The notes under the pieces: generated by a model
Database searches by the model: none
Seen by the model: the letters and a program-made list of their open reading frames with translations, nothing else
Told to the model about the DNA's origin: nothing
NCBI GenBank assembly: GCA_934526185.1
Contig: CAKTAA010000003.1
Coordinates: 2,950-66,949 of the forward strand
Source: an uncultured Eubacteriales bacterium
GTDB lineage: Bacteria; Bacillota; Clostridia; Oscillospirales; CAG-272
DNA: 64,000 bases
Direction: 5' to 3'
Shown here: piece after piece, positions 31,542 to 62,826 of the stretch
How the letters are laid out: the number at the start of each line of letters is the position of its first letter
Position numbering within the stretch: the stretch's first letter is position 1
Position numbers and translations under genes: made by a program

Positions 31542-31627
31542 GAGATTATCATACCTTTCTGTGTTCTGTCAGAGAGGAACCGAACAAATTGTTCGGTTCC
31601 TCTCCCATTTGCGCGCAAATGGCCTTT

Positions 31628-48903: not shown

Positions 48904-48978
48904 GCATCTATCCTTTCCGCCATCCCCGCAGAACAGCATGTGAATACAGTCAGGCACTTCATCATTCGGCATGTCCTC

Positions 48979-49734: not shown

Positions 49735-49987
49735 AGCTTTCGCTTTGCGAAAGCTTCCTTTCCTGAGGAATCGGGACATGCTTGGCGGTTCAAATTCGCC
49801 AAACGCTTGTGAGAGTTTTATATAATCAAGCTTCGTGTTCTTCACTTTTTAAGGAGCAGTATTCCGTCATACGGCGTCATGAAAACCGGACGCCGCCGGA
49901 TACTGTTTTACCGATTTTTCAAACGGACGGACAACCGTTCCGGATGGTACTGACGCCTCAGATTCCGCAGAATCTTCACCGTATCCG

Positions 49988-51142: not shown

Positions 51143-51905
51143 AGCGCACCGCCATCACCGCCGCGCCCAGTGCCCCCGTTATCTGCGGCTCAAAGGGTAT
51201 TTTCAGTGCCGGATATTTTTTGCAAAAGCAGTCGGCAACCGCGCCGTTTTTGGCCACGCCTCCCGTAAGCACCAAAGTGCAGCCGTCCGGAATGTTTCCG
51301 GCCAGTGCGAGAATGCGCCCTGCTATGGACTGACAGATTCCCGCAGCAATATCCTCGCGTCCGACACCCTTCGAGATGCCGGAGATTACCTCGCTCTCCG
51401 CAAATACCGTACAGGTACTGCTGATCGGATATGGCTTTTCCGCCCGCCTCGCACATTCGGAAAAAGCGTCAAGATCCATCTTCATCACGCCGGCCATCAC
51501 TTCAAGAAAGCGCCCTGTCCCTGCCGCACACCGATCGTTCATGGCAAAGCTTTTAACTGTTCCGTCGTCAGACAGCCGAATAACCTTGCTGTCCTGTCCC
51601 CCGATATCGATAATGCACCCAGCATTCGGAAACAGGTACCGGACGCCCGCCGCATGACAGGTAATTTCCGTCAAACTGCGGGCGCCTTCAATATTGCCTC
51701 GGCCGTATCCGGTTCCGACAGTACCGCCTATCTCCCGCTCATCCACCCCTGCCCGTTCGCAAAGGCGGCGCGTAAGCTCACGCGCAGTCTGCGCATGGCT
51801 GTATCCGCTTGATTGTGTGAGATAGGATACAGGACGCCCCGCACTGTCCGTCAATACGGCATTTGCGGAAACGGAACCAATATCGATTCCCAAATAGTAC
51901 TTCAT
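51135..51905 (-). CDS. Acyl-CoA dehydratase activase (BcrAD/BadFG/HgdC-type ATPase)
   Basis: YLGIDIGSVSANAVL (ASKHA phosphate-1), NDRCAAGTGRFLEVMA (cluster-bridging Cys region), LTGGVAKN. 256 aa as for HgdC/HadI. Confidence 0.85.
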   Translation of the reverse strand: MKYYLGIDIGSVSANAVLTDSAGRPVSYLTQSSGYSHAQTARELTRRLCERAGVDEREIGGTVGTGYGRGNIEGARSLTEITCHAAGVRYLFPNAGCIIDIGGQDSKVIRLSDDGTVKSFAMNDRCAAGTGRFLEVMAGVMKMDLDAFSECARRAEKPYPISSTCTVFAESEVISGISKGVGREDIAAGICQSIAGRILALAGNIPDGCTLVLTGGVAKNGAVADCFCKKYPALKIPFEPQITGALGAAVMAVRYG

Positions 51906-53104
51906 AACCGATTCTCCAGACTTTCTGAAAATGCGTCCATGCGGAGCTTCATCTGCTGTGCCGAAACGCCTCCCGGATCGATGCAGTCGCCGTACAGCTC
52001 AAGACAGGGCAAGCCCTGCCGTACGCAAAGCTCTTTCAGTTCCCATGCCGCGCCCGGTATGGCACGGCATCCCTGATGCATGAAGATGACTGCGGCCTCT
52101 ATGTTCATCTCGCGTATGATTTTATTGTAAAGCGTCGGTTTGCCGCCTGAATGACCGAGAAGAAAGTGTGACATTACCTTCTGTGCAATTGAAGAGAGCG
52201 GACGCCTCTCGTCAAGCGGCTCCCAATAGATATATCCGGTCATGTCAAATGCGACGGCACATTTGAGCGTCTGCTCAAAATATCGGAGAAGCTCCCCCGA
52301 AAACAGCGGTGCGAAGTGTACCCACAGCAGTCTGTGGTACTTTCCGGGCATCGGCACCCGGCTCTCCAGCTCCTCCCTGTACGCCCGCGCAATACGGGCT
52401 CCTTCGGCGGAACCAAGCAGAAAGGTCAAGCCGAACAGATTGCGCAGCGCCAAATTGCCGCAAAAAAGAAGATTTTGGCTCCGCATACAGTTTGCGCGTA
52501 CAAGCTCGTCTCTCGCTTCGTTTGAAAGATGCACGGCTTCCTCCAGCTCCGCGCGTCCAAAGCTCCTGCCCATTCTTCTCAGAAAAAAGCCGCACAGCTT
52601 CGCAAGCCTTTTCCGCATCAGCCGTCTGTTCTCCGGCGTATCAAGATACGGCACTTCCAAGAGAAACACCTCGGTTCCGTGCCGCTCCCGCAGATACCGC
52701 GCCATCGCTGTTCCGCCGTCACATATATGCGAGGAAAGAACCGCCGTTTTCGGCGGAGGCAGCATGCCGCTCTCCAGAGCCCCTATCACCGCCTTGTGAT
52801 AGGAGCAGACACCCACAGGAAACCCCGCTGAGTGCGCGTATGCAATCTGACCGGCAGCCAGCCCCAGCGTCGACATCCAGCCCGACATAAGCTCTATGTG
52901 AACAGGAATGCATCCGGCGGCATACAGCAGCTCTGTCGGCATGACCATATTGGTCCAAACAACGGACTCCGTTTTTTTCCACACCGTGTCGGAAAACAGT
53001 CTGCTCTGATAGCTGACGAGCAGGCGCGCGGCATTCAGCTCCATCTGTGCGGAGGCGCCTCCCGCCAGCCGCATCCGCTGTCTCCATATTTCTGCGGTCG
53101 TCAC
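51902..53104 (-). CDS. 2-hydroxyacyl-CoA dehydratase (HGD-D) family subunit
   Basis: VVWTNMVMPTELLYAAGCIPV and later Cys blocks are typical of HgdA/HadB-like subunits. Likely GTG start at 53104 (AAGAGGA 5 nt upstream); the ORF extends to 53182. The stop overlaps the activase start as ATGA. Confidence 0.65.
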   Translation of the reverse strand: MTTAEIWRQRMRLAGGASAQMELNAARLLVSYQSRLFSDTVWKKTESVVWTNMVMPTELLYAAGCIPVHIELMSGWMSTLGLAAGQIAYAHSAGFPVGVCSYHKAVIGALESGMLPPPKTAVLSSHICDGGTAMARYLRERHGTEVFLLEVPYLDTPENRRLMRKRLAKLCGFFLRRMGRSFGRAELEEAVHLSNEARDELVRANCMRSQNLLFCGNLALRNLFGLTFLLGSAEGARIARAYREELESRVPMPGKYHRLLWVHFAPLFSGELLRYFEQTLKCAVAFDMTGYIYWEPLDERRPLSSIAQKVMSHFLLGHSGGKPTLYNKIIREMNIEAAVIFMHQGCRAIPGAAWELKELCVRQGLPCLELYGDCIDPGGVSAQQMKLRMDAFSESLENRL

Positions 53105-53284
53105 AACAGTCCTCTTTCTCCGGTTTCTCCGGCATTTTTTCCCGGTTGTATGTATGCAGCGTTTTGATCGTCCGGCAAACATCCAAGGCGGATAATTTTT
53201 GAAGCTTGTCTGTCCGAGCTTTTGCAGAAACGGCAGCTCTTTTTACAGCAGCAATTTATGCCCGGCTTTCTGCGATTTGAGCTT

Positions 53285-54253
53285 TTACGGCATCCCGCCG
53301 AATCGCAGACATTCCGCAAAGGCCTCCAGACGGAGACGGCTGTGTGCAGATATCCTCTGCGGAAACGACTCCTCCAGCACCAAAAGTCTTTTTTCCTCGT
53401 TTTCACACAGCCGTGCGACAGCGGGTGCGGAAAACATACTGAAATCACAGTGTCTGGACACAATACAAATGACAGCCCGGGCATTCCGGATTAGCTCTCT
53501 TGCGTACGCTTCATAAAAAAGCATCCGCGGGCAAGCGGGAGCTCTCCCGCCGTTCAGAACTGCGTCGCCGCGGTTCGTTTGAAAGCAGGTATTGAAAGCA
53601 AGCGTCTCTTCTCCGAAAAGCTTCCGCATCTCCTCCGCATAATTCTGCGGAAGAGCGGAGGCCAGCACGAGAATTTCTTTTCCGGAAAGCTTTTCGCCGC
53701 GGTTTTCGCAGGAAAAAAAACTGTACAGGCTCTGGTCCCCCGATATCCGGACACGAAAGGTTACCCGCTCCTTAGGCTGAATACCTTCTGCCGCACCCAC
53801 AGGTCTTTGCGTTTTTCTAATCAGCAAACGCGGCTGTTTCCTGCATACTGTACCGTAATTTTCCGCCGTGCGGGGCGTGCGGCCGCCCGGCGTAGCTACG
53901 GAAAGCTCCTGTGGGATTCCGAATCTGCTCGCCAGAGAGTCAAACATTTCGGATGCATTTGTCATCGACGCGTCATAGCCGGATACCTCCAGCATAAAAA
54001 TAAAGATATCCGGAGCCAGCAGGCGGATTCTGTCATACAGCCGCTGGCTCCCGCTGCAGCAGTTGGTCAGAAGGACGCCGTCATATGCCGTAAAGTCAAT
54101 TTTTTCGCCGTGGAGAACATAACCGCACAGATTCTGGGGAAATACGCCGTACTCCCGTCCCTCCGCGGCGTCAGAGGCGCAGATCATTTCGTATCCCATG
54201 CGGCGCAGCGTCCCGTGAGGGACAAAGGAGCAGAAATATAACAGTTTTGGCAT
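53285..54253 (-). CDS. HGD-D-family-related protein (third, shorter subunit)
   Basis: 322 aa. MPKLLYFCSFVPHGTLRRMGYE and LLTNCCSGSQRLYD resemble the N-terminal and Cys motifs of HGD-D proteins. GAGAGGA RBS. The assignment is tentative. Confidence 0.45.
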   Translation of the reverse strand: MPKLLYFCSFVPHGTLRRMGYEMICASDAAEGREYGVFPQNLCGYVLHGEKIDFTAYDGVLLTNCCSGSQRLYDRIRLLAPDIFIFMLEVSGYDASMTNASEMFDSLASRFGIPQELSVATPGGRTPRTAENYGTVCRKQPRLLIRKTQRPVGAAEGIQPKERVTFRVRISGDQSLYSFFSCENRGEKLSGKEILVLASALPQNYAEEMRKLFGEETLAFNTCFQTNRGDAVLNGGRAPACPRMLFYEAYARELIRNARAVICIVSRHCDFSMFSAPAVARLCENEEKRLLVLEESFPQRISAHSRLRLEAFAECLRFGGMP

Positions 54254-54470
54254 CGGCGTTTTCCTCTCATTAAAATTTCACTTACGGAGCTGTCTCTTGT
54301 GTTTCTGCGCTTTCTGATAAAGTCCGCATTTCCCTGTTTAAAATCAGGTTGAAAAATGATGCTGCCAATGGTATACCGTACATAGCAGACTAAACGGCTG
54401 AACTTCAAGATGAGGAAATCTCACGCCGAATGATGTGAAATTTCCGTTCGTATAGAAGCAGGACTGGTCC

Positions 54471-54577
54471 GACGCAGCGTTTCTCGCCGCGTAAGTCAGT
54501 ACAGGTTTCAATCATGTTCAAGTTTTGCGACCGAAGGGGAGCAAAATCTTGTAGACGCAGCGTTTCTCGCTGCGTAA
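54471..54577 (+). repeat. Two copies of a 24-nt hairpin-forming direct repeat
   Basis: GACGCAGCGTTTCTCGCCGCGTAA (54471-54494) and GACGCAGCGTTTCTCGCTGCGTAA (54554-54577), 83 nt apart start to start. Each folds as ACGCAGCG-TTTCT-CGCTGCGT; copy 1 has one mismatch. Confidence 0.6.
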
Positions 54578-54684
54578 ACGTTCAGTCAAAATCCGCAACG
54601 GAAAGAAATGAAAAATACAGTACACGGGAAATTGGTAGGGTTATCGTACAGCAGCCCTCAAAAATACGGAGGATATACAGTCTC

Positions 54685-55112
54685 ATGCTTTTGAATTACA
54701 GAAACTTATCCGTCAGAAATGCTTCACCGGATGATGCCGTACAATTGGCGGCGCGGCGGTATGACGGAACCGTTATGGCTCATGCCGGTTTTCCGCGGGG
54801 ACTAAATCAGACGGCGGAGGAACGGCAGAAATAGGTTTCAAGATCTGCGATTTTTTAATACACGGCAAGGGGTTTTGCAAAATACTGCTCAGTATGCTCA
54901 TATCGTCTCTGTTTCGCAATATGGGATATGACAAAATCTTTATTAATATAAATGCAGAAAACAAAAGACCTCAGCACGTATACGAAAGGCTTGGATTCCG
55001 GAAAATACGAAGCCGGGAAAACTCGCGGAAAAACCAGCTTGGCGAGCTGCAGTCGTCTGTCGATTACGAATTGTGTCGCGAAAACTTTTTAAGCTTTGTA
55101 AATGAATTCTGA
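54685..55112 (+). pseudogene. GNAT-family N-acetyltransferase remnant (internally deleted or frameshifted)
   Basis: N-terminal piece MLLNYRNLSVRNASPDDAVQL..GTVMAHAGFPRGL (54685-54834, stop). C-terminal piece ..MGYDKIFININAENKRPQHVYERLGFRKI.. (54894-55112). It lacks the central acetyl-CoA-binding region. It is the only plus-strand coding remnant inside the minus-strand cluster. Confidence 0.55.
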
Positions 55113-55214
55113 TGAAAGAACGGACTGTCAAGATGCTTTCCGGCATACCAGTCAGTCGTCGCCGGCAGTTTCCACATGATTTCACCGCGGAGCGCGTAAG
55201 GGACGGAAGCTCTT

Positions 55215-56552
55215 TCAGCTTTCGTTCTTTTTCTTTACGGTACCGGTTACGCCTTTCTCATCTCTTGCTTTGAAGCCCTCGGTAAATTTCCGGATTTTCT
55301 GTCGAACGGCCTCCGGTGAGGAAAGCCGGCTGAGCAGGAGGCAGTATTTTTTGTTCAGCTCCTCCTCCGACAGACAATCATGCATTATCACCGGCTGATA
55401 AATGGTATAGTCGTTCCAATCGTAGGATGTCAGCCGGCGGCTGCGGTGCATCCTCTCGAAAAGCGGAGTGCCGGGGTACGGCGTCGCCATGGTTATGCTG
55501 GCGGCAAAAAGCCCAGTTCGGCTGATAAATTCCTCCAGCTGCTCAAAGACCTGCGGCGGATCGTCAGGCCATCCGACAATGAAGCTCCCGGTAACGCCGA
55601 TCCCCTCATCCTGTATTCTCTGAATCATTTCGCCGTATCTGTCAGCGAAACGCGCTTTCAGGCCGCTGGGTTCCACCTGTTCCAGCAGATCTCTCCGTAT
55701 GCCTTCAAAACCGATTAGAACCTGTGAAAGTCCGCTCCGGCGCGCCTCGCGGATGTTTTCACGCTCCGCCGCAAAAGAGATATCTGTGTTTGCATACCAA
55801 GAAAAGCCGCTCTCTCTCATAACATCGGCCAGCATGTGAAAATGCGCGGGATCGCTGTAAATGTTGTCGTCGGTTATATAAATCCGGCCCGCTCCCCGCA
55901 GCCCATTAATTGCCTGTAGCTCTCTTTCGAGCTGTTCTGCATTTTTTTTGCGGAATACATCGCCGTACAGACCGCGGACATTGCAGAAGCTGCACCGGTT
56001 GCTGCACCCGCGCGAGGACTGCACGGGTATCAGCTTTCTCTCCTCCTCCGACAACAGGGAAAATAGCGGAACAGGAGAGGCGCAGAGATTTACAGTCCCC
56101 ATAGGCTGTTCATAGCACTTTTCGGGACATCCGCGCGCAAAATCCCGCAGGAAACGCCGGAATATAAGCTCCCCTTCTCCGAGCATCAGTGTGTCGGCGT
56201 GCCGCGCCGCCTCCTTCGGCATCGCTTTGGCGTGAACGCCTCCGATGACAACATGCGCTCCCCGCCGCCGGTATTCGTCAGCCAGCGCATACGCACGTCT
56301 GGCATTGGGCGTGACAGTATACAAGCTTATGACATCGTACGTTCCTTCCGGTAGAGAACAGAATGCCTCATCTGCCGTCTCAGGCTCATACCCCTCCTGC
56401 TCCGCGATAGCTGCCAGAAGGAAGAGCGCCGGCGTTGCGACGCGCCAGCGGCTGCCAAGCAACCGTTTCTCCTCATCTTCGAAGGAACGGTTGAGCACAA
56501 AATCACCGCGCGGGCCCGGCATTGCCGGCGCTGCAAGCAAGATTCTCTTCAC
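55215..56552 (-). CDS. B12-binding-domain radical SAM protein (paralog 3)
   Basis: GTG start at 56552 (VKRILLAAP matches paralog N-termini). HVVIGGVHAKAMPKEAARHADTLMLGEGE, SRGCSNRCSFC, IYITDDNIY. C-terminal block RRLTSYDWNDYTIYQPVI is shared with paralogs 1 and 4-6. Confidence 0.85.
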   Translation of the reverse strand: MKRILLAAPAMPGPRGDFVLNRSFEDEEKRLLGSRWRVATPALFLLAAIAEQEGYEPETADEAFCSLPEGTYDVISLYTVTPNARRAYALADEYRRRGAHVVIGGVHAKAMPKEAARHADTLMLGEGELIFRRFLRDFARGCPEKCYEQPMGTVNLCASPVPLFSLLSEEERKLIPVQSSRGCSNRCSFCNVRGLYGDVFRKKNAEQLERELQAINGLRGAGRIYITDDNIYSDPAHFHMLADVMRESGFSWYANTDISFAAERENIREARRSGLSQVLIGFEGIRRDLLEQVEPSGLKARFADRYGEMIQRIQDEGIGVTGSFIVGWPDDPPQVFEQLEEFISRTGLFAASITMATPYPGTPLFERMHRSRRLTSYDWNDYTIYQPVIMHDCLSEEELNKKYCLLLSRLSSPEAVRQKIRKFTEGFKARDEKGVTGTVKKKNES

Positions 56553-57864
56553 TGTTTTTCACCCTGTTCCGATTCAGATTTTTAAAGTACAGCAGCCTGT
56601 CCCGCGCCGCCTGCGGTGAATAGATCTGACGAAGTGCCTCGCCAAAGCCTCTTTCCAACTCGTCCACCCGCATTTTTGCAGGCTCCACCACCACATTCCA
56701 AAGCGTATAGCTCCCCCAATGTCTGCTCAGAATTCTTCCGTCGGTTTCCAGCCGGCGATAAAGCTCAGAACCGGGAAACGGCGTCGGCACAGACAGCATC
56801 GCACCGTACAGGTGATTTTCCAGAGTAAAATCCACAATCCGCTGAAAAACACCGGTATCATCGCCGTCCAATCCCAAAATGAAGGTTCCCCATACGCCGA
56901 TGCCGTAGGACTGAATGATGGATATTGCCTCGGCATATCCGGAAAGCTGTTCATATTTCCACTTTTCCATTTCACGAAGCGATGCCGGCTCAATGCTCTC
57001 AAAGCCGATCACCAGCTTCCGGCAGCCGGACGCATGCAGAAGCTTCAGAAGCTCCGGCTTGTAGGCCAGACTGATATCCGTATGGGACATCCAGCGAATG
57101 CCGGCCGATGCAAGCTCGCGCAGAAGCGTTTGCGAAAACTTTTTGTCTACCAGCATGTTGTCATCCGTAAAATAGACATGCGGCCTTTCCTTCATTGATT
57201 TGATCGTTTCCAGCTCGGAGAGTACCTGCTCCACGCCTTTGTGGCGGTATTTCGGTCCGTAGACCTTCGTGGAAGCGCAGAACGCGCAGTTGTGCGGACA
57301 GCCGCGGGATATCTGAACCGGAACCGTTCTGTATTTCGCCATATCCAGCAGGCCGTAAAGCGGCGTCGGGCTCTGTGCAAGATCGATGAGCTCCGTATTC
57401 CTGTAAAAACGGTCCGGCCTTCCGTTTCGGCAGTCCGAAAGAAATTTCGGCCATGTTTTCTCGCCCTCACCGATGAAAACGGTATCAAAATGCTCCGCCG
57501 CTTCCTCCGGCAGGTTTGTAGGATGCATGCCGCCGCATACGGTATAAATGCCGCGCGAACGGAAAAAATCGGAGAGCTCATAGGCACGCGTTGCCTGCTG
57601 CGTCATAAAAGACATCCCCACCATGTCGCAGGCAACCGAAAGATCCGTCTCCTGCGTCTCCTCGTCGATGTAGGATATTTCATTGAAATACGGGGCGGCA
57701 ATGGCCGCAACGGTCAGCAGCGGGGCGTTCGGGCAGGACATTAGCTCACGCAGCGAATCGATCTGACTTAAGCTGTCGTATAGCTGCCGGGTACGCAGAT
57801 TCTCCGCGGAGCGGCCCATCCCGACGCCGCGCGGAGACAGCAGAACAAGTTTATTCAACTTCAT
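56503..57864 (-). CDS. B12-binding-domain radical SAM protein (paralog 4)
   Basis: MKLNKLVLLSP, TVCGGMHPTNLPEEAAEHFDTVFIGEGE, SRGCPHNCAFC, VYFTDDNML, GRILSRHWGSYTLWNVVVEP. The 3' end overlaps paralog 3 by 50 nt. Confidence 0.85.
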   Translation of the reverse strand: MKLNKLVLLSPRGVGMGRSAENLRTRQLYDSLSQIDSLRELMSCPNAPLLTVAAIAAPYFNEISYIDEETQETDLSVACDMVGMSFMTQQATRAYELSDFFRSRGIYTVCGGMHPTNLPEEAAEHFDTVFIGEGEKTWPKFLSDCRNGRPDRFYRNTELIDLAQSPTPLYGLLDMAKYRTVPVQISRGCPHNCAFCASTKVYGPKYRHKGVEQVLSELETIKSMKERPHVYFTDDNMLVDKKFSQTLLRELASAGIRWMSHTDISLAYKPELLKLLHASGCRKLVIGFESIEPASLREMEKWKYEQLSGYAEAISIIQSYGIGVWGTFILGLDGDDTGVFQRIVDFTLENHLYGAMLSVPTPFPGSELYRRLETDGRILSRHWGSYTLWNVVVEPAKMRVDELERGFGEALRQIYSPQAARDRLLYFKNLNRNRVKNSEENLACSAGNAGPAR

Positions 57865-57985
57865 TTGACAGCCGTTCCTTTCTGAAACAAGTAGTTTTTC
57901 ATGAACCGGACAATGAACCTAAGATGTTCCGCCGGTGGACCGCGCAGAAACGTTTCGGACATCGCTTTTCAAGCCGCACCATGGA

Positions 57986-59323
57986 TTAAACATTTTTATT
58001 CGCTGCAGCCCCTGCCCTGCGGTTATTGCGCAGATTTCTGCGGAGGGACGCCATCCGGTATGCCGCCGCCTCGGTGTTGTAAAATTTATCATAGATCCAC
58101 GCGACCCCCCTCATAAGCTCATCCGCCGTCATATGCTTCGGACGGTAAACGACGTCCCAGAACGTGTACCGGCTCCAGTCATAATCCGCAATCCGTCCGG
58201 CAGCTTCCATCTCACAGAATAGCTGTGTGCCCGGCAGCGGCGTCAGAATCGTGAAGCTGCCGGAATAAATACCGTTGCTCTGGACAAATTCCAGCACTTT
58301 TTCGAACACATCCGCGCCGTCCTCGTCTGTGCCGAACAGAAAGGATCCCCATATCTGTACACCCGCCGCCTGTATGTTTGCCGTCAGCCGCTCATAGCGC
58401 TGCGACATTCCCGCTTTCCATTTGTTTTTATCAAGCGTAGCCAGGCTGCCGCCGGATGGATTTTCAAAGCCGATAAAGAGCCACCGGCAGCCAGCGTCCC
58501 GGAGCAGCGCCAGAATTTCCGGCTCTTCTCCAACGGAAATATCCGTCTGCGTCCCCCAGTAGATTTCCTCGTCCCGAAGCAGACGGAGCAGCTTCAGAGC
58601 GCTGTCCCTGCGGATAAACATATTATCATCCGCAAAGAATACAAACGGTGCAGCCGTGACACGCTTAATCGCCCGGAGCTCCTTTATGACCTGCTCCGCC
58701 GTTTTGTGCCGGTAACGGGAGCCGTAGATAACCGGCAGCGTACAGTAAGAGCAGGTTCGGGGACATCCCCGCGTCGTCTGCAGACTGTAGGAGCCGTAAA
58801 GCGAAGGGTTCAAAAGATCGTAACGCGGTACGGGAGACAGTCTCAGATTCGTCAGCCGTTCGGCTCTGTAAACTCTTTTCGGCGAGCCGGCTTCAAAATC
58901 CGTGAGAAACCGAAACAGTGTTTCCTCGCCCTCTCCGCACATAACGGTATCCGCATAATGCAGCGCCTCCTCACACAGCATGGAGGCATGTATGCCGCCC
59001 ATCACGGTATAACACCCCCGTTCTCTAAACCTCTTGCAGATCTCGTAAGCGCGCGGCGCCTGCTGCGTCATGCCCGTCACCGCTGCCAGTGTAAAATCCT
59101 CATCGAACGGAATCTCCTCGCCGTGATCCTCGTCGATAAACCGAAGCTCATACGACGGAGGAAACAGCGCCGCAAGTGTCAGCAGACTGAGGTTCGGCGT
59201 TTCCCACGCTCCGTAAAACGTCGGAACAACCGTGTTGCTCTCCATAAATGACTTCATATATGGATTTTTACCGTATTTTGATCCCTTCGGTACTACCAGA
59301 GCCACCTTTGACATGGATGCCAT
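57986..59323 (-). CDS. B12-binding-domain radical SAM protein (paralog 5)
   Basis: Start moved to MASMSKVALVVP (ATG 59323, or 59314). TVMGGIHASMLCEEALHYADTVMCGEGE, TRGCPRTCSYC, VFFADDNMF, GRIADYDWSRYTFWDVVYRP. Confidence 0.8.
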   Translation of the reverse strand: MASMSKVALVVPKGSKYGKNPYMKSFMESNTVVPTFYGAWETPNLSLLTLAALFPPSYELRFIDEDHGEEIPFDEDFTLAAVTGMTQQAPRAYEICKRFRERGCYTVMGGIHASMLCEEALHYADTVMCGEGEETLFRFLTDFEAGSPKRVYRAERLTNLRLSPVPRYDLLNPSLYGSYSLQTTRGCPRTCSYCTLPVIYGSRYRHKTAEQVIKELRAIKRVTAAPFVFFADDNMFIRRDSALKLLRLLRDEEIYWGTQTDISVGEEPEILALLRDAGCRWLFIGFENPSGGSLATLDKNKWKAGMSQRYERLTANIQAAGVQIWGSFLFGTDEDGADVFEKVLEFVQSNGIYSGSFTILTPLPGTQLFCEMEAAGRIADYDWSRYTFWDVVYRPKHMTADELMRGVAWIYDKFYNTEAAAYRMASLRRNLRNNRRAGAAANKNV

Positions 59324-59390
59324 ACTCCCTTCGCAAAACCGTTTTTTATGCCCAGTATCGTTACACTCCAGCCGCCGCTGCGGAAAAGCA

Positions 59391-61787
59391 TTACTCGGCC
59401 CGGGCATTTGCCGCCTCATTCTCCTTATGCAGTCTGCGGACGCGGCCTGTCGTACCGTTAAGCTCCACAAGCTCGCCTTCGGTAAAATGCTGCATGGCGT
59501 CTCCGTTAAAGACAACTACCGGGATCCGGTATTCCCTTGCGACGACCGCCCCGTGGGAAAGCATGTTGCCGTAACTCATAATCAGCCCGGAAACCAGCTT
59601 CAGCATGGGTGTCCAACTCGGATGAAAGGTATGAACAACACCGATGTCTCCCGCACACAGTCTGCTGAAATCCTCCGTGCCGCGCAGCAGCCGAATCCGT
59701 CCGCGCGCCTCCCCGCCGCTGATGCCTGTGGTTTTGTAGCGTTTTCCTCCCTGACACCGCTGTATCTCAACCTCTTCGGATTCCTTGAAGAGATACGGAG
59801 GTGTCCGGTCTTTTTCCTGCAAAAACAGGTGCCGGCGCCGTGAGGCGGACACCGAGGCATTCTGCAGCCCCGCGCCGGCGCACTGCCCGATTTCCCTTGC
59901 TGTCAGGTGAAAAATATCTTCTCTGGCCTTCAGGATCCCCTCGGATGCAAACGCTTCTCCGAGGCGCAGAAGAATACAGCGGATAAGATGCCAGCTCCGG
60001 TCAAATTCATAACGCTGATCCTCCCGCAGGCACATATAGATGCCGGCCAGCCGCGCCGTTTTCTTAAGCCTTCTCCGCAGAACGGCCGGAATATCTGATG
60101 AAGCAGCTTCCATCCGGTGTGTCTGTTTTCCGCTGCCGGTTCTGTTTTTATCTTCGTTATGAGAGGATAACCGGCGCAGATACTGTCTCACGACGGAGAT
60201 GAGATATTCCGGATTTTCCTTTAAATGCGGGTATAAAATATCATCGCAGTGCATCCCCCTGTGCCCGTGTTTTTTCAGATATGCTCTGAGATTTTCATAA
60301 ATGTCCGGACACGCACCGCTGCGGAGCGTTTTTTGAATCTCGGCCGGCTCCCGCTCTGAAAACAACCGGTATGCGTCCCTGCTTCTGCGGATTTTTTCAG
60401 CAATTTGCATCAGCTCGCGGTTCGCTCTCACCGTACTGCTTTTCATTCCACGGTGCGCGATGGCCGCGTCGGCCTCCGATTCTTCAAGGCCTGCCTCAGC
60501 GTATGCAGTCCGTGCCCATTTGTATGAAATTTGAGCAAAGCCGAGAAATCTGAAATGATCGGCGCCCAGGTAATCGCAGAAGTTCTCCGTCGCCCTGCTG
60601 AGCAGGGAAAGCAGCCCTCCTGTGTCGGCAGCGTCCCGCACCTTCCGGCTGAGTGCGCGCACCCGCCTCCGGTATCGTCCGAGACGTCTGTACCATGAAC
60701 GCCAGTCCCTCTCCATTTTCCGGATAAGGCGGCTCCTTTTTTCCGCATCGCCCTCTCCTGTATCCTCGAAATACTTTTTCTGAAATTTCAGATTCCAGTA
60801 TACCCTGTTGCGTATGAAGCACAGAGGCCTGTCCTCCGGCGCGCCCCCTCTCTCGTTGCTGTAAAAGCTGAAAAACACCCTGTCCTGCCACGCATCAAGC
60901 AAAGAGAGGTAGCAAACGGAGGCAGGAGACGCAAAGCGGTCAAGCAGAACACAGTCCAAGCTGCCGCCGAAAATGTCGTGATACAGACCGTCGCCTGCGG
61001 ACGTAATCGGCCTCGCCTGAAACACGTATAGTTTTCCGGAAGAGATCCCCCATTCGATGTCCCACCCGTCTCCAAGGCGGGCAATTACATTTTCTGCCGT
61101 ATCCCGAAGAAGAATCGCAGAATTCGGCGTAAGAGGCCCGTCTGCCGCGGCCGTATCGATTGTTTCTCCTTTTTTCCAGATATATCTGCAAGCTTGCCCC
61201 CCTCCGTCAACGACCGGCCGGCAGCCGCCCCGGCAGACCTCCGCCACAAAACTGTTCTCTCCAGTCAGCGGATGCCTTGTAAACAGTACGCCCGCAGACT
61301 CACAGGACAACATTTTCTGTATCAGCACAGGCATCGGCTGCGTACCGGCGGATACTCCCCTGTATGAGTTCACCCGCGGCGCAAGATAGGAGATCCATAC
61401 ACGTTTGACTGCGTCGGCAAGCTGAGGGGGATTTTCCACGTCCGAAACGCTTTCATAAATACCGGCAAAGGAACGCTCCGTGCTGTCCTCACCCGGAACG
61501 CTGGAGCGGACAATGACTTTCCCGCCTCCGCCCGTCCGCTCAAAAACGGCGTTCAACATTCGGATTTCCTTTTTGTCAAAAGCAGCGCTCAGAATCTTCG
61601 CCGCCGCATTCTTTTCCGCCGTATCAATACGGTTGCGCAGCATAAAACGCGCGGCAAATGCGGCAGGCAGGACATATCCGCCGCTGATCCGAAATCCGGT
61701 CCTCCAAAGCCGCATAAGCATGGCGGCCTTACCGCCGATTTCTCTTTCCGGCGGGATTTCCTTCTTTCTGTTGAGTAGATTTATCAT
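59391..61787 (-). CDS. PEP-utilising-enzyme family phosphotransferase (PPDK_N ATP-grasp plus C-terminal swivelling His domain; RPH/PpsA-like)
   Basis: N-terminal IGGKAAMLMRL (GGKAxNL-type ATP-grasp start). C-terminal GDIGVVHTFHPSWTPMLKLVSGLIMSYGNMLSHGAVVAREYRIPVV (mobile His domain). ATG at 61787 is preferred over the TTG at 61823. Confidence 0.7.
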   Translation of the reverse strand: MINLLNRKKEIPPEREIGGKAAMLMRLWRTGFRISGGYVLPAAFAARFMLRNRIDTAEKNAAAKILSAAFDKKEIRMLNAVFERTGGGGKVIVRSSVPGEDSTERSFAGIYESVSDVENPPQLADAVKRVWISYLAPRVNSYRGVSAGTQPMPVLIQKMLSCESAGVLFTRHPLTGENSFVAEVCRGGCRPVVDGGGQACRYIWKKGETIDTAAADGPLTPNSAILLRDTAENVIARLGDGWDIEWGISSGKLYVFQARPITSAGDGLYHDIFGGSLDCVLLDRFASPASVCYLSLLDAWQDRVFFSFYSNERGGAPEDRPLCFIRNRVYWNLKFQKKYFEDTGEGDAEKRSRLIRKMERDWRSWYRRLGRYRRRVRALSRKVRDAADTGGLLSLLSRATENFCDYLGADHFRFLGFAQISYKWARTAYAEAGLEESEADAAIAHRGMKSSTVRANRELMQIAEKIRRSRDAYRLFSEREPAEIQKTLRSGACPDIYENLRAYLKKHGHRGMHCDDILYPHLKENPEYLISVVRQYLRRLSSHNEDKNRTGSGKQTHRMEAASSDIPAVLRRRLKKTARLAGIYMCLREDQRYEFDRSWHLIRCILLRLGEAFASEGILKAREDIFHLTAREIGQCAGAGLQNASVSASRRRHLFLQEKDRTPPYLFKESEEVEIQRCQGGKRYKTTGISGGEARGRIRLLRGTEDFSRLCAGDIGVVHTFHPSWTPMLKLVSGLIMSYGNMLSHGAVVAREYRIPVVVFNGDAMQHFTEGELVELNGTTGRVRRLHKENEAANARAE

Positions 61788-61887: not shown

Positions 61888-62826
61888 TTACGCCGTACCC
61901 GCCTCTCCGATATCCTCCGGCCGGCCGATCCAGCGGCAATTCATGCGTCCGTCCGCCAGACGGGCATTGCCGCTGACCGTGCATCCGGGGCCGAACTCGT
62001 AAAGCTCTCTGATGCCGGATTCTGCCAGCCTGCGGATCAATTTCTGCCATAAAATCGGCGAGGCTATCTGCCGGGACAGCTTATCCCGCAAAGCATTGCC
62101 GTCCTCAGACGGCATGCCGTCAACACAGCTGTAAACAGGTGCGGCAGGCGCGGATACCTGCATTTCCGCAAAATCTTCGGCTGATTCCTCCTGTATCCTA
62201 CGGCAGAGCGGACTGTGATACGCCCGCTCCCCGTCAAGCCGTATGGCCCAGCGCGCTCCGCATTTTTTTGCCAGCGCGGCGGCGGACAGTACCCGCTCCT
62301 TCCTCCCCGACAAAATATTCTGCGTCTCTGACAGAAAGGCGCCGACACACAGACTTTCACCGTCCGGATCTGCCTGCAGGCAGCATTTTTCGAGCTGCTG
62401 CACGGGAAAATCCACAATGCGGTACATACATTCCTCACCCGCCGGCAGCGCCAGACGCGACTCCAGGCGCAGAAGCAGTCTCAGTACCTGCGGAAACGGG
62501 AGAACCCCTGCGGCCGTCAAAGCGGTAAATTCGCCTTGGCTGAAGCCCAGAAACGCCGACGGCCCTCCGAAGCGTGACGAGAAAAACCGATAGATGCTGA
62601 GACAATGTGTGAGCAGAGCGGCCATCTCCAGACGTTTCGGGAGATGCTTTTCCGAAAAGCATCTTTGCGCAAGCCGCTCCCCGATACAGTCCTCGGCCTG
62701 CTGCCAGACGCCGCGCACGGAAGCGTCCGCCCTGTAAAATCCGCCGTCAAAATTTTTCTTAGCCGCTTCCCTTCCGGGAAATGCTGCGGCAGCGTTTATC
62801 CAAAGCTTTTTCTGTATAGCAACCAT
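61888..62826 (-). CDS. FabD-like acyl-CoA:ACP acyltransferase (Acyl_transf_1 family)
   Basis: AAAFPGREA (compare FPGQGSQ), nucleophile elbow GFSQGEFTALTAAGVL (compare GHSLGEY), C-terminal YEFGPGCTVSG. 312 aa. Confidence 0.7.
   Translation of the reverse strand: MVAIQKKLWINAAAAFPGREAAKKNFDGGFYRADASVRGVWQQAEDCIGERLAQRCFSEKHLPKRLEMAALLTHCLSIYRFFSSRFGGPSAFLGFSQGEFTALTAAGVLPFPQVLRLLLRLESRLALPAGEECMYRIVDFPVQQLEKCCLQADPDGESLCVGAFLSETQNILSGRKERVLSAAALAKKCGARWAIRLDGERAYHSPLCRRIQEESAEDFAEMQVSAPAAPVYSCVDGMPSEDGNALRDKLSRQIASPILWQKLIRRLAESGIRELYEFGPGCTVSGNARLADGRMNCRWIGRPEDIGEAGTA

What the first reader, a model, noticed from the sequence alone, without database searches (positions are those of the whole stretch)
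55215..59323. Six paralogous B12-binding radical SAM genes, three of them in uninterrupted tandem
Six paralogs are present: 1 (40137-41462), 2 (44276-45655), 3-5 (55215-59323) and 6 (62944 to past 64000).

All six carry:
- an N-terminal Rossmann-like block, (V/I)xGGxH(A/P)xxxPEEAxxHAD..x.GEGE;
- an (S/T)RGC-x3-C-x2-C cluster motif (CPHRCEFC, CPYACTFC, CSNRCSFC, CPHNCAFC, CPRTCSYC, CPRRCSFC);
- an F(F/A/T)DDN block.

Paralogs 1 and 3-6 also share a C-terminal GR(I/L)..(Y/H)(D)W..YT.W.VV..P..M...EL block. Paralog 2 is clearly more divergent.

Six such enzymes in one locus imply either iterative modification (multiple methylations or C-C couplings) of one substrate, or sub-functionalised isozymes. 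Paralogs 3 and 4 overlap by 50 nt, with paralog 3 using a GTG start. That is unusual and implies tight translational coupling.
Basis: seen in the sequence. Interest (0 to 1): 0.75.

Follow-up and report, generated by a model that had tools for sequence, protein, structure and literature searches.

The report
Six radical SAM genes, orphan lipid/polyketide cluster
The six radical SAM genes are real and intact; they are old, separately conserved members of an uncharacterised fatty-acid/polyketide-type gene cluster found in anaerobic Bacillota, where they most likely modify one carrier-bound carbon chain step by step, giving a rare, testable non-anammox relative of the unsolved 'ladderane-type' clusters.

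Summary
Observation confirmed. Six intact minus-strand ORFs each carry a Rossmann (B12-binding-type) domain plus a CX3CX2C radical SAM barrel. Motif details need only small corrections.

They are not local duplicates. They are 21-41% identical to each other. P1 and P3-P6 each have a one-to-one orthologue (42-65%) in other Bacillota, in conserved order.

They belong to a roughly 30-kb orphan cluster:
- two ketosynthases, each with a degenerate partner, and two ACPs;
- a FabD-like acyltransferase, an enoyl-CoA hydratase and an alpha/beta hydrolase;
- an HgdC-type activator with three HgdA/B-like proteins;
- an Rph/PigC-like ATP-dependent phosphotransferase;
- GGDEF-NHL fusion proteins;
- just beyond the window, SAM synthetase, a nucleosidase-like gene and an NRPS.

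P4-P3 is the invariant core pair. P6-AT-Rph-P5 is an accessory insert.

The GTG start of P3 is supported by orthologue N-termini and by a structure model. The 50-nt overlap comes from a lineage-specific deletion of about 108 nt. A 4-nt overlap is the family norm.

No paralog reaches any curated family cut-off. The best structural match is AprD4, which has no cobalamin, so B12 use and the reaction type (methylation or ring formation) remain unproven.

Relatives from other phyla often lie directly after an ACP gene, which points to a carrier-bound substrate.

Verdict: new variant of a known kind. Interest 0.6.

The parts
62944..64000 (-). P6: Rossmann + radical SAM enzyme, cut by the window end (full length 448 aa). 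First gene of the accessory insert P6-AT-Rph-P5.
   Evidence: Orthologues at 56-59% identity in Vallitalea L007, L009 and L012. P6 is sister to the P5 clade.
61888..62826 (-). FabD-like acyltransferase (malonyl-CoA:ACP transacylase type).
   Evidence: Pfam Acyl_transf_1 at 30.8 bits, just under the cut-off. NCBIfam fabD at 120 bits, below the 261-bit cut-off. Conserved only in the long cluster variant.
59391..61787 (-). Rph/PigC/PEP-synthase-like ATP-dependent phosphotransferase, 798 aa.
   Evidence: Pfam PPDK_N + PEP-utilizers. Best NCBIfam hits are RedH, PEP synthase and PigC, then Rph, all below cut-off. The closest PDB chains are 5fbs/5hv1, deposited as 'phosphoenolpyruvate synthase', E = 2e-37.
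57986..59323 (-). P5: Rossmann + radical SAM enzyme. It may start at 59314.
   Evidence: Orthologues at 61-64% identity in L007, L008, L009 and L012.
56503..57864 (-). P4: Rossmann + radical SAM + DUF4070 enzyme. Core member of the cluster. It carries a C-terminal tail of about 13-17 aa created by the deletion.
   Evidence: Orthologues at 53-69% identity (P0003-P0079), with closer relatives P0001/P0002 at 96/84%, then a drop to 46% or less. AF2 model has pLDDT 84, with residues 440-453 disordered. Junction analysis.
55215..56552 (-). P3: Rossmann + radical SAM enzyme with a GTG start. It lies directly downstream of P4 in every cluster locus that carries both genes.
   Evidence: In the AF2 model (pLDDT 88.7), residues 3-8 form the first strand of the Rossmann sheet.
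56503..56552 (-). 50-nt P4/P3 overlap.
   Evidence: About 108 nt are absent here relative to the sister lineage L092, which has a 97-nt spacer with a GGAAAGGA ribosome-binding site.
54254..55214 (.). 961-nt gap between P3 and the HGD module. It is absent in Vallitalea. It carries a 72-aa GNAT C-terminal remnant on the + strand (54894-55112).
   Evidence: No Rfam family was found.
49988..54253 (-). ATP-dependent radical reductase/dehydratase module. It comprises an HGD-D-like protein (53285-54253), an HgdA/B-like protein (51902-53182), an HgdC/BcrAD-type activator (51135-51905) and a second HgdA/B-like protein (49988-51142).
   Evidence: Pfam HGD-D and BcrAD_BadFG. NCBIfam CoA_E_activ at 212 bits, above its cut-off. 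Weak matches to the double-cubane reductase family and to MbdO. Conserved in all cluster variants.
48979..49845 (-). Enoyl-CoA hydratase/isomerase family protein.
   Evidence: Pfam ECH_1. Conserved. The ketoreductase that follows it in the other cluster loci, which represent 12 lineages, is missing here.
47347..48972 (-). GGDEF-like + NHL beta-propeller fusion protein. The motif is degenerate (SGEDEF).
   Evidence: Conserved in all cluster variants.
46430..47350 (-). Alpha/beta hydrolase, a candidate thioesterase/release enzyme.
   Evidence: Conserved.
45683..46345 (-). Conserved 220-aa protein with no significant Pfam hit. The N-terminus looks like a helix-turn-helix by eye only.
   Evidence: Homologues at 34-41% identity in L007, L008, L009 and L012.
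44276..45655 (-). P2: the divergent Rossmann + radical SAM enzyme, and the most methyltransferase-like of the six.
   Evidence: The closest PDB chains are MgmA 9ccb (E = 5e-16, spanning both domains) and TokK (E = 4e-9). A ribosome-binding site supports the 45655 start.
42652..44241 (-). Second GGDEF + NHL fusion protein, with the GGDEF motif intact.
42379..42633 (-). Second acyl carrier protein, 84 aa.
   Evidence: Pfam PP-binding at 45.8 bits.
41552..42382 (-). NHL beta-propeller protein.
   Evidence: Conserved next to P1 in the short-variant loci.
40137..41462 (-). P1: Rossmann + radical SAM enzyme, sister clade of P3.
   Evidence: Orthologues at 42-45% identity in R. cellobioparum, Pelosinus, L015 and L016. 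A strong AAAGGAG ribosome-binding site precedes the start.
39342..40034 (-). HAD-family hydrolase. Probably the last gene of the cluster.

Best explanation
The six genes encode anciently diverged radical SAM enzymes of the class-B type (Rossmann domain plus radical SAM barrel). They are fixed, non-redundant parts of a conserved and uncharacterised type II (discrete-enzyme) fatty-acid/polyketide-like cluster of anaerobic Bacillota.

Proposed mechanism:
1. Two ketosynthases, each with a degenerate partner, build an acyl or polyketide chain on an acyl carrier protein.
2. Each radical SAM enzyme uses its CX3CX2C [4Fe-4S] cluster to cleave SAM and abstract one particular unactivated hydrogen from that carrier-bound chain.
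3. The radical is then resolved by methyl transfer from methylcobalamin (slightly favoured) or by C-C ring closure or rearrangement.
4. The six enzymes therefore carry out a fixed series of site-specific steps on one scaffold.

P4 then P3 is the invariant core pair, expressed from abutting or overlapping genes. P1 also belongs to the core set. P6 and P5, together with the acyltransferase and the Rph-like kinase, form an add-on module that supplies two more steps. P2 is a separate, methylase-like branch.

What is shown: domain content, orthology, synteny and the gene starts. What is inferred: the substrate tether, the order of steps, cobalamin use and the chemistry.
For: Domains and motifs:
- All six have the radical SAM domain and the Cys triad.
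- The AF2 models of P4 and P3 are confident two-domain folds. They match AprD4, MgmA, TsrM, CysS, OxsB and TokK at TM 0.55-0.72.

One pathway:
- Ketosynthase, ACP and acyltransferase genes are co-linear on one strand, with several 4-8-nt gene overlaps.
- The same gene order occurs in Vallitalea pronyensis, Bianquea renquensis, Ruminiclostridium cellobioparum, Pelosinus, Wukongibacter and several MAGs.

Non-redundant, ancient paralogs:
- Paralogs are 21-41% identical to each other, against 42-65% for the one-to-one orthologues of P1 and P3-P6.
- These five paralogs fall in separate clades in the NJ tree.

Carrier-bound substrate:
- In 32 of 67 loci from other phyla, an ACP-like ORF lies within 3 kb of the homologous radical SAM gene. 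In about 24 of them it lies directly upstream.
- One example is an AMP-ligase/ACP/radical SAM cassette in Spirochaetota.
- CysS, a structural neighbour, acts on pantetheine-tethered substrates (the PDB entry titles).

High SAM demand:
- SAM synthetase and a PNP_UDP_1 nucleosidase-like gene lie at the head of the cluster.
- MetK is also present in the Vallitalea and Wukongibacter clusters.

Methylation lean:
- Most characterised B12-dependent radical SAM enzymes are methyltransferases (list in PMC12931638).
- P2 aligns over both domains with the methylases MgmA and TokK.
Against: - No paralog reaches the curated cut-off of any NCBIfam family.
- For P1 and P3-P6, the top partial hit is HpnJ. BchE and the ladderane-type lipid family also rank high for several of them. 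PMC12931638 places these families among 'other or unknown transformations'.
- The best structural match for both P3 and P4 is AprD4, which lacks cobalamin. Neither cobalamin binding nor methylation can therefore be read from the sequence.
- No product, substrate or expression data exist.
- In this lineage the conserved ketoreductase is missing, a 961-nt insert splits the operon, and P3 has lost its good ribosome-binding site. The cluster may be altered or partly impaired here.
- An NRPS lies upstream, so the scaffold may not be purely acyl.
- The tree is neighbour-joining without bootstrap support.
Confidence: 0.6

Rival explanations
1. The paralogs, or most of them (P1 and P3-P6), are not methyltransferases. 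They are ring-forming or rearranging enzymes that convert an unsaturated ACP-bound chain into a carbocyclic product. This would parallel the role proposed, but never shown, for the cobalamin radical SAM enzyme of the anammox ladderane cluster. The HgdC/HgdAB-like module would supply ketyl-radical or reductive chemistry.
For: - Among curated families, HpnJ is the top hit for P1 and P3-P6, and BchE and the ladderane-type lipid radical SAM family also rank high for several of them.
- Radical SAM genes at 35-38% identity lie within 4 kb of FabF-like ketosynthase pairs in Brocadiaceae and other Planctomycetes MAGs.
- Short-variant clusters carry polyene-type dehydratases (ApeI/ApeP-like), a ketoreductase and a KS/CLF pair that could make an unsaturated chain.
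- KSb resembles AmcF, the ketosynthase of a ring-forming type II system (PMC10698177).
Against: - All of these family matches are far below the curated cut-offs: 55-98 bits for P1 and P3-P6 (up to about 110 bits if P2 is included) against cut-offs of 360-578 bits.
- The anammox sequences fall in a different, deeper clade of the tree.
- Ladderane chemistry is itself unproven (PMC13459092; bioRxiv 10.64898/2026.05.19.726425).
- The long variant, which is the one in the window, lacks the dehydratase, and this lineage also lacks the ketoreductase.
Confidence: 0.3
2. Some or all paralogs are cobalamin-independent enzymes like AprD4. In this reading the Rossmann domain is only a structural or substrate-binding module, and the enzymes catalyse dehydration, elimination or another redox-neutral radical reaction.
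For: - AprD4 is the top Foldseek hit for both P4 and P3 (TM 0.72) and the top PDB sequence hit for the P4 profile.
- AprD4 and ArsL sit in the B12-dependent radical SAM similarity network without binding cobalamin (PMC12931638).
- The Pfam B12-binding score is marginal for P3-P6.
Against: - Identity to AprD4 is only 18-21%.
- Cobalamin-dependent enzymes (MgmA, TsrM, CysS, OxsB, TokK) follow closely in the same searches.
- The GGxH motif of the Rossmann domain is invariant in all six paralogs and in the P4 orthogroup.
Confidence: 0.15
3. The six genes are redundant isozymes produced by recent local amplification.
For: Tandem arrangement of three of them. All six share the same domain architecture.
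Against: - Identity between paralogs is 21-41%.
- P1 and P3-P6 each have a closer orthologue in other genera, in the same relative position.
- The paralog clades are interleaved with sequences from other phyla.
Confidence: 0.03
4. The radical SAM enzymes modify a peptide: a RiPP, or the product of the NRPS that lies upstream.
For: - A C-A-PCP-C NRPS lies about 2 kb upstream of the first ketosynthase.
- P2 gives partial hits to RiPP C-methyltransferase families.
Against: - No precursor-peptide gene or RiPP recognition domain was seen in the cluster ORFs.
- The conserved partners in all variants are ketosynthases and ACPs, not the NRPS.
- Relatives in other phyla sit next to ACP genes.
Confidence: 0.07
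5. In this particular (gut-type) lineage the cluster is decaying and the radical SAM set no longer makes the ancestral product.
For: - The ketoreductase is lost here, although it is present in the other cluster loci, which represent 12 lineages.
- A 961-nt insert with a GNAT remnant splits the operon.
- A deletion of about 108 nt fuses the P4 frame into P3 and removes P3's ribosome-binding site.
- In the sister contig L092 the HgdB-like gene is called as two pieces of 303 and 75 aa.
Against: - All six radical SAM ORFs and the other cluster genes are intact.
- The identical P4 protein is seen on six independent metagenome contigs. Four of these were fetched, and the neighbouring cluster genes on them are also 100% identical to the window by tblastn.
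- A housekeeping FabG could replace the ketoreductase, as FabI and FabD do in the cispentacin pathway (PMC10698177).
Confidence: 0.1

Closest known systems
Anammox 'Cluster I' (KustE3603-3608): amxACP, amxFabZ, amxFabF2/amxFabFmut and a cobalamin-dependent radical SAM enzyme; and the 'ladderane-type' BGCs that antiSMASH reports in many phyla.
   Same: A discrete ketosynthase with a degenerate ketosynthase partner, a dedicated ACP and a Rossmann + radical SAM enzyme sit together in one locus. Radical SAM genes in Brocadiaceae and other Planctomycetes contigs are 35-38% identical to P4 and lie near two FabF-like genes. The function is unsolved in both cases.
   Different: The locus here has six radical SAM enzymes instead of one, and no phytoene-dehydrogenase-like gene was seen. 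It adds an HgdC/HgdAB-like module, an Rph-like kinase and GGDEF-NHL fusions. The paralogs score 55-84 bits against a 360-bit cut-off for the curated ladderane-type family TIGR04072. The anammox sequences fall in a different clade. The hosts are Bacillota, and nothing is known about whether they make ladderanes.
CysS and TokK/ThnK (cobalamin-dependent radical SAM methyltransferases that act on pantetheine- or carrier-tethered substrates; iterative methylation).
   Same: Two-domain fold (TM 0.62-0.67). The substrate is probably carrier-tethered. Several methylations on one scaffold is the leading hypothesis. From my own knowledge, thienamycin-type clusters also carry several class-B paralogs (ThnK, ThnL, ThnP).
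   Different: Sequence similarity is marginal: CysS E = 7e-6 over 80 residues, and TokK matches only P2 and P3 weakly. CysS and TokK are about 200 residues longer. In those systems one enzyme acts iteratively, whereas here there are six dedicated enzymes.
AprD4 (radical SAM 1,2-diol dehydratase of apramycin biosynthesis, PDB 6fd2).
   Same: Best structural match for P4 and P3 (TM 0.72, similar length of about 450 aa). Best PDB sequence match for the P4 profile (E = 1.4e-15).
   Different: Identity is 18-21%. AprD4 acts on an aminoglycoside and binds no cobalamin. Its cluster context is unrelated. The NCBIfam AprD4 model scores 49-60 bits against a 500-bit cut-off.
HpnJ and BchE (class-B radical SAM enzymes listed under 'other or unknown transformations').
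   Same: HpnJ gives the highest partial NCBIfam score for P1 and P3-P6. P4 carries the DUF4070 C-terminal region.
   Different: Scores are 49-98 bits against cut-offs of 481-578 bits, and for four of the five paralogs they cover only the radical SAM core. There are no hopanoid or chlorophyll genes nearby.
AmcF-AmcG / highly reducing type II PKS systems (cispentacin, coronafacic acid).
   Same: KSb (outside the window, on L001) scores 176 bits on the AmcF model. It is followed by a short, motif-poor ketosynthase-like protein, as AmcF is by AmcG. The ACP is discrete.
   Different: The score is below the 325-bit cut-off. No AmcH, AmcC, AmcD or AmcE homologues were identified. The cispentacin paper does not mention radical SAM enzymes at all (0 occurrences).

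Membership tests
Radical SAM superfamily (PF04055) | CX3CX2C [4Fe-4S]-binding motif and a partial TIM-barrel core that scores above the Pfam gathering score. | tested here: met
   All six score 47.9-64.4 bits against a 29.5-bit cut-off. The Cys triad and the GxE SAM-binding element are invariant. The barrel is modelled for P4 and P3.
Class B (cobalamin-dependent) radical SAM enzymes | N-terminal Rossmann-type B12-binding domain (PF02310) fused to the radical SAM core. | tested here: met
   PF02310 is above its cut-off in P1-P4 and below it in P5 and in the truncated P6. It is listed for full-length P6 on L001. Rossmann strands are modelled with pLDDT above 90. Foldseek hits include MgmA, TsrM, CysS, OxsB and TokK.
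Class B (cobalamin-dependent) radical SAM enzymes | Actual binding and use of cobalamin. | not testable with these tools
   I know of no universal sequence motif for this. The top structural match, AprD4, has the same domain layout but no cobalamin.
TIGR04072 lipid-biosynthesis (ladderane-type) B12/radical SAM protein | Score at or above the curated 360-bit cut-off. | tested here: not met
   55.5-84 bits for the six paralogs.
HpnJ (TIGR03471) / BchE (TIGR02026) / HpnR (TIGR04367) | Score at or above the curated cut-offs (577.6, 481.35 and 650 bits). | tested here: not met
   At most 98.5 bits for HpnJ, 95.5 for BchE and 72 for HpnR. For P1, P3, P4 and P6 the best HpnJ and BchE stretches cover only the radical SAM core.
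RiPP radical SAM C-methyltransferases (TIGR03975, ApyD NF050148) | Score at or above the curated cut-off, plus a precursor peptide nearby. | tested here: not met
   The best is P2, at 96 bits against 281.85 and 105 bits against 750. No precursor-like ORF or recognition domain was seen.
AprD4-family radical SAM diol dehydratase (NF033070) | Score at or above the curated 500-bit cut-off. | tested here: not met
   45.7-60.4 bits in five paralogs, and no hit for P3.
Conserved Bacillota 'P4-P3 + HgdC/HgdAB + KS/ACP' cluster family (defined here) | A P4 orthologue (at least about 53% identity) immediately followed by a P3 orthologue, then HGD-like genes, the activator, ECH, a GGDEF-NHL protein and an alpha/beta hydrolase, with a KS/ACP block upstream. 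| tested here: met
   The window matches this order gene for gene. The same order is found in 13 other lineages, carried on loci L005-L017, L026, L030 and L092. The one deviation here is the missing ketoreductase.

The most novel reading that the evidence does not exclude
Anaerobic, partly gut-associated Bacillota use this cluster to make a so far unknown, heavily radical-remodelled fatty acid or polyketide. The product would be either poly-C-methylated at unactivated carbons or polycyclic in a ladderane-like way. Up to six dedicated Rossmann + radical SAM enzymes would act in a fixed order on an ACP-bound chain, assisted by an ATP-driven HgdC/HgdAB-type ketyl-radical enzyme. The cluster occurs in culturable organisms (Vallitalea pronyensis, Ruminiclostridium cellobioparum, Pelosinus, Bianquea). 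It could therefore serve as the first experimentally tractable model for the whole class of unsolved 'FAS + B12 radical SAM' (ladderane-type) clusters.
Probability: 0.3. Interest if true: 0.85.

Novelty: new variant of a known kind. Interest (0 to 1): 0.6.

Why it matters
Radical SAM chemistry on ketoacyl (non-isoprenoid) lipids is almost unexplored. [quoted passage not shown] 'Ladderane-type' clusters are reported in many phyla with no known function (PMC9902471).

This locus belongs to a well-delimited, syntenic cluster family. To my knowledge it has more class-B-type radical SAM genes (six) than any characterised pathway. It also combines them with an ATP-dependent HgdC/HgdAB-like radical enzyme. 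The family occurs in cultured anaerobes, and in a lineage whose closest sister contig comes from a human gut metagenome. That makes product discovery and enzymology feasible.

The natural variation between a three-enzyme core and a five-to-six-enzyme version offers a built-in experiment on what each radical SAM step adds.

Tried and rejected
1. Curated families. NCBIfam was run on all six paralogs and on ten neighbours. Only the HgdC-type activator passed a cut-off, so no function could be transferred.

2. Source organism. The exact-sequence look-up returned no names. I can only say that the source is a Clostridia-like Bacillota, and that the nearest sister contig is from a human gut metagenome.

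3. Literature. Six full-text searches combined radical SAM, 2-hydroxyacyl-CoA dehydratase, ketosynthase, NHL, ladderane and Firmicutes/Ruminiclostridium. None found a description of this cluster. The Paenibacillus paper that surfaced was irrelevant, because its 'NHL' hit meant NHLP.

4. Riboswitches. An Rfam scan of the whole window at gathering thresholds found nothing, so there is no cobalamin or SAM riboswitch.

5. Promoters and terminators. The scan of 54100-59600 was uninformative: one promoter-like site against 4.1 expected by chance, and the terminator-like hits lie mostly inside genes.

6. Recent local duplication was rejected.

7. A downstream P3 start was rejected. The 415-aa gene call on contigs L003 and L004 would remove the conserved N-terminus and the first Rossmann strand.

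8. CylK/BrtB-type role for the NHL domains. I considered whether they resemble these alkylating beta-propellers. The PDB sequence search of the GGDEF-NHL protein returned only teneurin-like, SOQ1, designed 'Pizza' and TRIM NHL domains plus diguanylate cyclases, so there is no support for the idea.

9. Not done: the exhaustive representative-protein search, the viral and metagenome scans and the PADLOC/PHROGs libraries. None of them bears on the question.

Full report
**1. Observation**

All six ORFs are present on the minus strand at the coordinates given. Pfam finds a Radical_SAM domain in each (E = 2e-12 to 2e-17). It also finds an N-terminal B12-binding domain. That domain scores above the gathering threshold in P1-P4 and below it in P5 and in the window-truncated P6. 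The full P6 is 448 aa on metagenome contig L001, which contains the window fragment exactly, and the precomputed Pfam hits there list B12-binding.

An alignment of the six proteins confirms the Cys motifs letter for letter, the GGxH...PEEA...GEGE Rossmann block and the DDN block. Small corrections are needed:
- P1 has GEAE and P2 has GQGE.
- P2 has FFDNN and P3 has YITDDN.
- The C-terminal block is strong only in P4-P6.

P2 is the outlier at 21-25% identity to the others.

It hints that P5 may begin at 59314.

**2. The paralogs are old, not local**

The paralogs are 21-41% identical to one another. Five of them have a markedly closer one-to-one orthologue elsewhere:
- P6, P5, P4 and P3 match Vallitalea pronyensis genes at 56, 61, 60 and 43% identity.
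- P1, P4 and P3 match Ruminiclostridium cellobioparum genes at 43-45, 61 and 43-44% identity.

A neighbour-joining tree of 119 homologues places these five window paralogs in their own clades. P1 is sister to P3, and P5 is sister to P6. Single-copy sequences from Spirochaetota, Bacteroidales, Planctomycetes and other groups are interleaved among the paralog clades. There is no bootstrap support, but the identity matrix agrees with the tree.

In the large protein collection, P4 has 79 relatives (clusters at 90% identity) at 53% identity or more. These are two close relatives at 96% and 84%, and then orthologues at 53-69%. Named sources include Alkaliphilus, Wukongibacter, Vallitalea, Pelosinus, Ruminiclostridium and Paenibacillus. 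Identity then drops sharply to 46% or less.

Recent local duplication and redundancy are therefore rejected.

**3. The locus**

The radical SAM genes are part of a minus-strand gene array that runs from about 39.3 kb to beyond the window end.

Inside the window, in transcription order:
- P6, then a FabD-like acyltransferase;
- a 798-aa Rph/PigC/PEP-synthase-like phosphotransferase, whose closest PDB chains are 5fbs/5hv1, deposited as 'phosphoenolpyruvate synthase' (E = 2e-37);
- P5, P4 and P3;
- a 961-nt gap;
- three HGD-D-like proteins and an HgdC/BcrAD-type activator (the activator passes its NCBIfam cut-off);
- an enoyl-CoA hydratase;
- a GGDEF-NHL fusion protein and an alpha/beta hydrolase;
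- a conserved protein of unknown function, then P2;
- a second GGDEF-NHL fusion protein, a second ACP and an NHL propeller protein;
- P1 and a HAD hydrolase.

Contigs carrying the identical genes extend upstream. Read away from P6, they show:
- a 168-aa ketosynthase-like fragment;
- a ketosynthase resembling AmcF (176 bits, below the cut-off);
- an ACP;
- a 247-aa degenerate ketosynthase-like protein;
- a FabF-like ketosynthase;
- SAM synthetase;
- a PNP_UDP_1 nucleosidase-like gene;
- an NRPS.

The rest of the window holds housekeeping genes (ValRS, ArgRS, RNase J, KsgA, YebC), so the cluster is chromosomal.

**4. Comparative architecture**

tblastn of all cluster proteins against 87 fetched loci shows two syntenic versions.

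- The long version is KS, partner, ACP, KS, partner, P6, AT, Rph, P5, P4, P3, the HGD module, ECH, KR, GGDEF-NHL, hydrolase, the unknown protein and P2. It occurs in the window, in Vallitalea, in Bianquea renquensis and in two uncultured Eubacteriales MAGs.
- The short version lacks P6-AT-Rph-P5. It adds an ApeI/ApeP-like dehydratase, and R. cellobioparum also has a thiolase. P1, an ACP, a ketoreductase and NHL genes lie upstream. It occurs in R. cellobioparum, Wukongibacter, Pelosinus and several MAGs.

The invariant core is P4 followed directly by P3, then the HGD/activator module. P6-AT-Rph-P5 behaves as an accessory insert. The 'three in tandem' are therefore one accessory gene plus the core pair.

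The ketoreductase that follows ECH in the other cluster loci, which represent 12 lineages (48-56% identity to the Vallitalea gene), is absent from the window. It is also absent from the sister contig L092.

**5. The P4/P3 junction**

Orthologous P3 proteins begin with a conserved (M/V/L)K(R/K/T)(I/L)LLL.PK motif. The codon aligned with it varies across 14 lineages:
- Start codon: GTG in 5, TTG in 6 and ATG in 3.
- Overlap with the P4 stop: 4 nt in 9 lineages, 29 nt in Vallitalea and 50 nt in the window.
- Spacer instead of overlap: 5 nt in one lineage and 97-113 nt in two.
- Most lineages have a GGAGG-type ribosome-binding site inside the end of P4.

In the AF2 model of P3 (pLDDT 88.7), residues 3-8 (RILLAA) form the first strand of the Rossmann sheet, and the first ten residues have a mean pLDDT of 95. 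The downstream candidate starts are the TTG at codon 5, the ATG at codon 11 and the starts used in the 415-aa gene calls on L003/L004. Each would truncate or delete this strand. The GTG at 56552 is therefore the best-supported start, and every start that keeps any part of the strand overlaps P4.

The nearest sister lineage is L092, from a human gut metagenome, with 84% P4 identity. It has the same GTG start, but preceded by a 97-nt spacer containing GGAAAGGA. Relative to L092, the window lacks about 108 nt (91 + 17). The missing stretch includes the P4 stop codon, the spacer and that ribosome-binding site.

P4 consequently reads on for 50 nt in another frame. This adds a tail that is disordered in the model (residues 440-453, pLDDT below 50). 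The overlap is therefore real but a recent accident. What remains upstream of the GTG is a weak AGGGTG.

Conserved adjacency and frequent 4-nt overlaps do argue for co-expression of P4 and P3. The 50-nt version adds nothing to that argument and may even lower P3 output. Other 4-8-nt overlaps occur in the same cluster: HgdA-like/activator, activator/HgdB-like, GGDEF-NHL/hydrolase and ACP/NHL.

**6. What the enzymes are**

No paralog reaches the curated cut-off of any NCBIfam model.
- For P1 and P3-P6 the top partial hit is HpnJ. BchE, the ladderane-type lipid family, PhpK and the MJ_1487 family also appear.
- For P2 the best hits are the MJ_1487 family and RiPP or P-methyltransferase families.

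PDB sequence searches give only distant matches:
- The P4 profile matches AprD4 (1.4e-15), MgmA (9e-12) and CysS (7e-6).
- P2 matches MgmA over both domains (5e-16) and TokK (4e-9).
- P3 matches MgmA (1e-7).

Foldseek with the P4 and P3 models ranks AprD4 first (TM 0.72). MgmA, TsrM, CysS, OxsB, MiaB and TokK follow at TM 0.55-0.67.

The two-domain class-B-type fold is thus confirmed. AprD4, however, does not bind cobalamin (PMC12931638). Cobalamin use is not established for these proteins and cannot be tested with the tools available here.

**7. Substrate and mechanism**

Three lines of evidence point to an ACP-tethered acyl or polyketide substrate:
- The cluster encodes two ACPs and two ketosynthase systems but no precursor peptide.
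- In 32 of 67 loci from other phyla that carry a 35-45% homologue, an ACP-like ORF lies within 3 kb. In about 24 of them it lies directly upstream on the same strand. One example is an AMP-ligase/ACP/radical SAM cassette in Spirochaetota.
- CysS, a structural neighbour, uses pantetheine-tethered substrates (the PDB entry titles).

A SAM synthetase and a nucleosidase-like gene at the head of the cluster fit heavy SAM turnover. MetK is also present in the Vallitalea and Wukongibacter clusters.

I therefore propose a fixed series of site-specific hydrogen abstractions on one carrier-bound chain. Each would be resolved either by methyl transfer or by C-C bond formation. Methylation is slightly favoured, for two reasons. 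Most characterised family members are methylases, and P2 looks methylase-like.

The ring-forming alternative remains serious. P1 and P3-P6 lean toward HpnJ-, BchE- and ladderane-type models, and short-variant clusters carry polyene-type dehydratase and ketoreductase genes.

The roles of the other modules are inference only:
- the HgdC/HgdAB-like module (ketyl-radical dehydration or reduction);
- the Rph-like kinase with the HAD phosphatase (a phosphorylation/dephosphorylation step);
- the NHL propellers.

**8. Comparison with what is known**

The closest system in both homology and logic is the anammox 'Cluster I'. It contains an ACP, FabZ, a FabF2/FabFmut heterodimer, a phytoene-dehydrogenase-like gene and one cobalamin-dependent radical SAM enzyme. 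Its function is still unproven. Related to it are the 'ladderane-type' clusters that antiSMASH reports in many phyla.

Radical SAM genes in Brocadiaceae and other Planctomycetes contigs are 35-38% identical to P4 and lie within 4 kb of two FabF-like genes. A Nitrospirae MAG has a ketosynthase pair followed by four radical SAM genes in tandem.

The Bacillota cluster differs in several respects:
- the number of radical SAM enzymes;
- the HgdC/HgdAB-like module;
- the Rph-like enzyme;
- the GGDEF-NHL fusions.

It also fails the curated ladderane-family model. Six full-text searches found no description of it.

**9. Verdict**

The case is best described as a new variant of a known, itself unsolved, kind: ACP-linked FAS/PKS clusters with class-B-type radical SAM enzymes.

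Interest is 0.6. The locus is not categorically new, and no chemistry has been demonstrated. It is nevertheless an unusually rich, well-delimited and experimentally accessible case bearing on an open problem.

Caveats:
- Orthology rests on tblastn and a neighbour-joining tree without support values.
- Gene starts are inferred.
- The source organism is not identified.
- This lineage shows signs of remodelling: loss of the ketoreductase, the 961-nt insert and the junction deletion.

Noticed in passing
window 47347-48972 (-) and 42652-44241 (-); also 41552-42382 (-): Two proteins fuse a GGDEF-type domain to an NHL beta-propeller. One keeps the GGDEF motif and the other has SGEDEF. With a stand-alone NHL propeller, they are conserved members of the biosynthetic cluster in all variants. 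This is an odd place for diguanylate-cyclase-like domains, and their role (catalytic, regulatory or scaffolding) is unknown.
   Followed up: partly
window 49988-54253 (-): An HgdC/BcrAD-type ATP-dependent activator and three HgdA/B-like proteins are embedded in a ketosynthase/ACP cluster. One of the three is very degenerate. They give only weak matches to the double-cubane reductase family and to the 3-methylbenzoyl-CoA reductase subunit MbdO. I know of no such pairing with type II PKS/FAS genes in a characterised pathway.
   Followed up: partly
window 48972-48979 (the ECH to GGDEF-NHL junction): The ketoreductase gene that follows the enoyl-CoA hydratase in the other cluster loci, which represent 12 lineages (48-56% identity to the Vallitalea gene), is missing. 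The gap is only 6 nt, and no homologue occurs anywhere in the 64-kb window. The sister contig L092 lacks it too.
   Followed up: yes
window 54254-55214; GNAT remnant at 54894-55112 (+): A lower-GC gap of 961 nt interrupts the operon between P3 and the first HGD-like gene. It carries a 72-aa C-terminal fragment of a GNAT acetyltransferase on the opposite strand. In Vallitalea the two flanking genes abut. No Rfam family was found in the gap.
   Followed up: partly
window 59391-61787 (-) and 39342-40034 (-): An Rph/PigC/RedH-like phosphotransferase and a HAD hydrolase lie in the same cluster. Together they hint at a phosphorylation/dephosphorylation step, either as leaving-group activation or as a protected intermediate. 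The kinase occurs only in the long cluster variant.
   Followed up: partly
beyond the window end, locus L088 1-4327 (same genome): Directly upstream of the first ketosynthase lie SAM synthetase, a PNP_UDP_1 nucleosidase-like gene and an NRPS of at least 1501 aa (C-A-PCP-C). I did not establish whether the NRPS belongs to the same pathway.
   Followed up: partly
window 1828-8976 (-): Five tandem genes encode proteins with signal-peptide-like N-termini. One is an SLH/CBM9 protein, and the other four (286-450 aa) have no Pfam hit. They are paralogs at 30-65% identity and share an N-terminal region. The local GC content is lower (0.42-0.48).
   Followed up: partly
window 36570-38735 (+): A single 721-aa ORF fuses a YidC-type membrane insertase domain (60KD_IMP) to a CDP-glycerol glycerophosphotransferase domain. 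It lies next to a sulfatase-family (LTA-synthase-like) gene at 34205-36046.
   Followed up: no
window 28816-29955 (-): One ORF combines a MarR-type winged helix-turn-helix domain with a nucleotidyltransferase domain. It lies directly downstream of, and overlaps, the permease gene of an ABC importer operon (29880-33513).
   Followed up: no
locus L064 (Nitrospirae MAG) 2000-12600; locus L090 (Spirochaetota) 6321-9311: Other phyla show related layouts. One is a ketosynthase pair followed by four Rossmann + radical SAM genes in tandem. Another is a compact AMP-ligase/ACP/radical SAM cassette in which the ACP and radical SAM genes overlap by 4 nt. Both are uncharacterised as far as I could find.
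   Followed up: partly
locus L007 (Vallitalea pronyensis) 11304-11334: The gene call on record for the P3 orthologue starts at an ATG just after the P4 stop. That start removes the conserved N-terminus. The homology-aligned ATG lies 29 nt inside P4 and has a GGAGGA ribosome-binding site, so this gene is probably mis-started in the annotation.
   Followed up: partly
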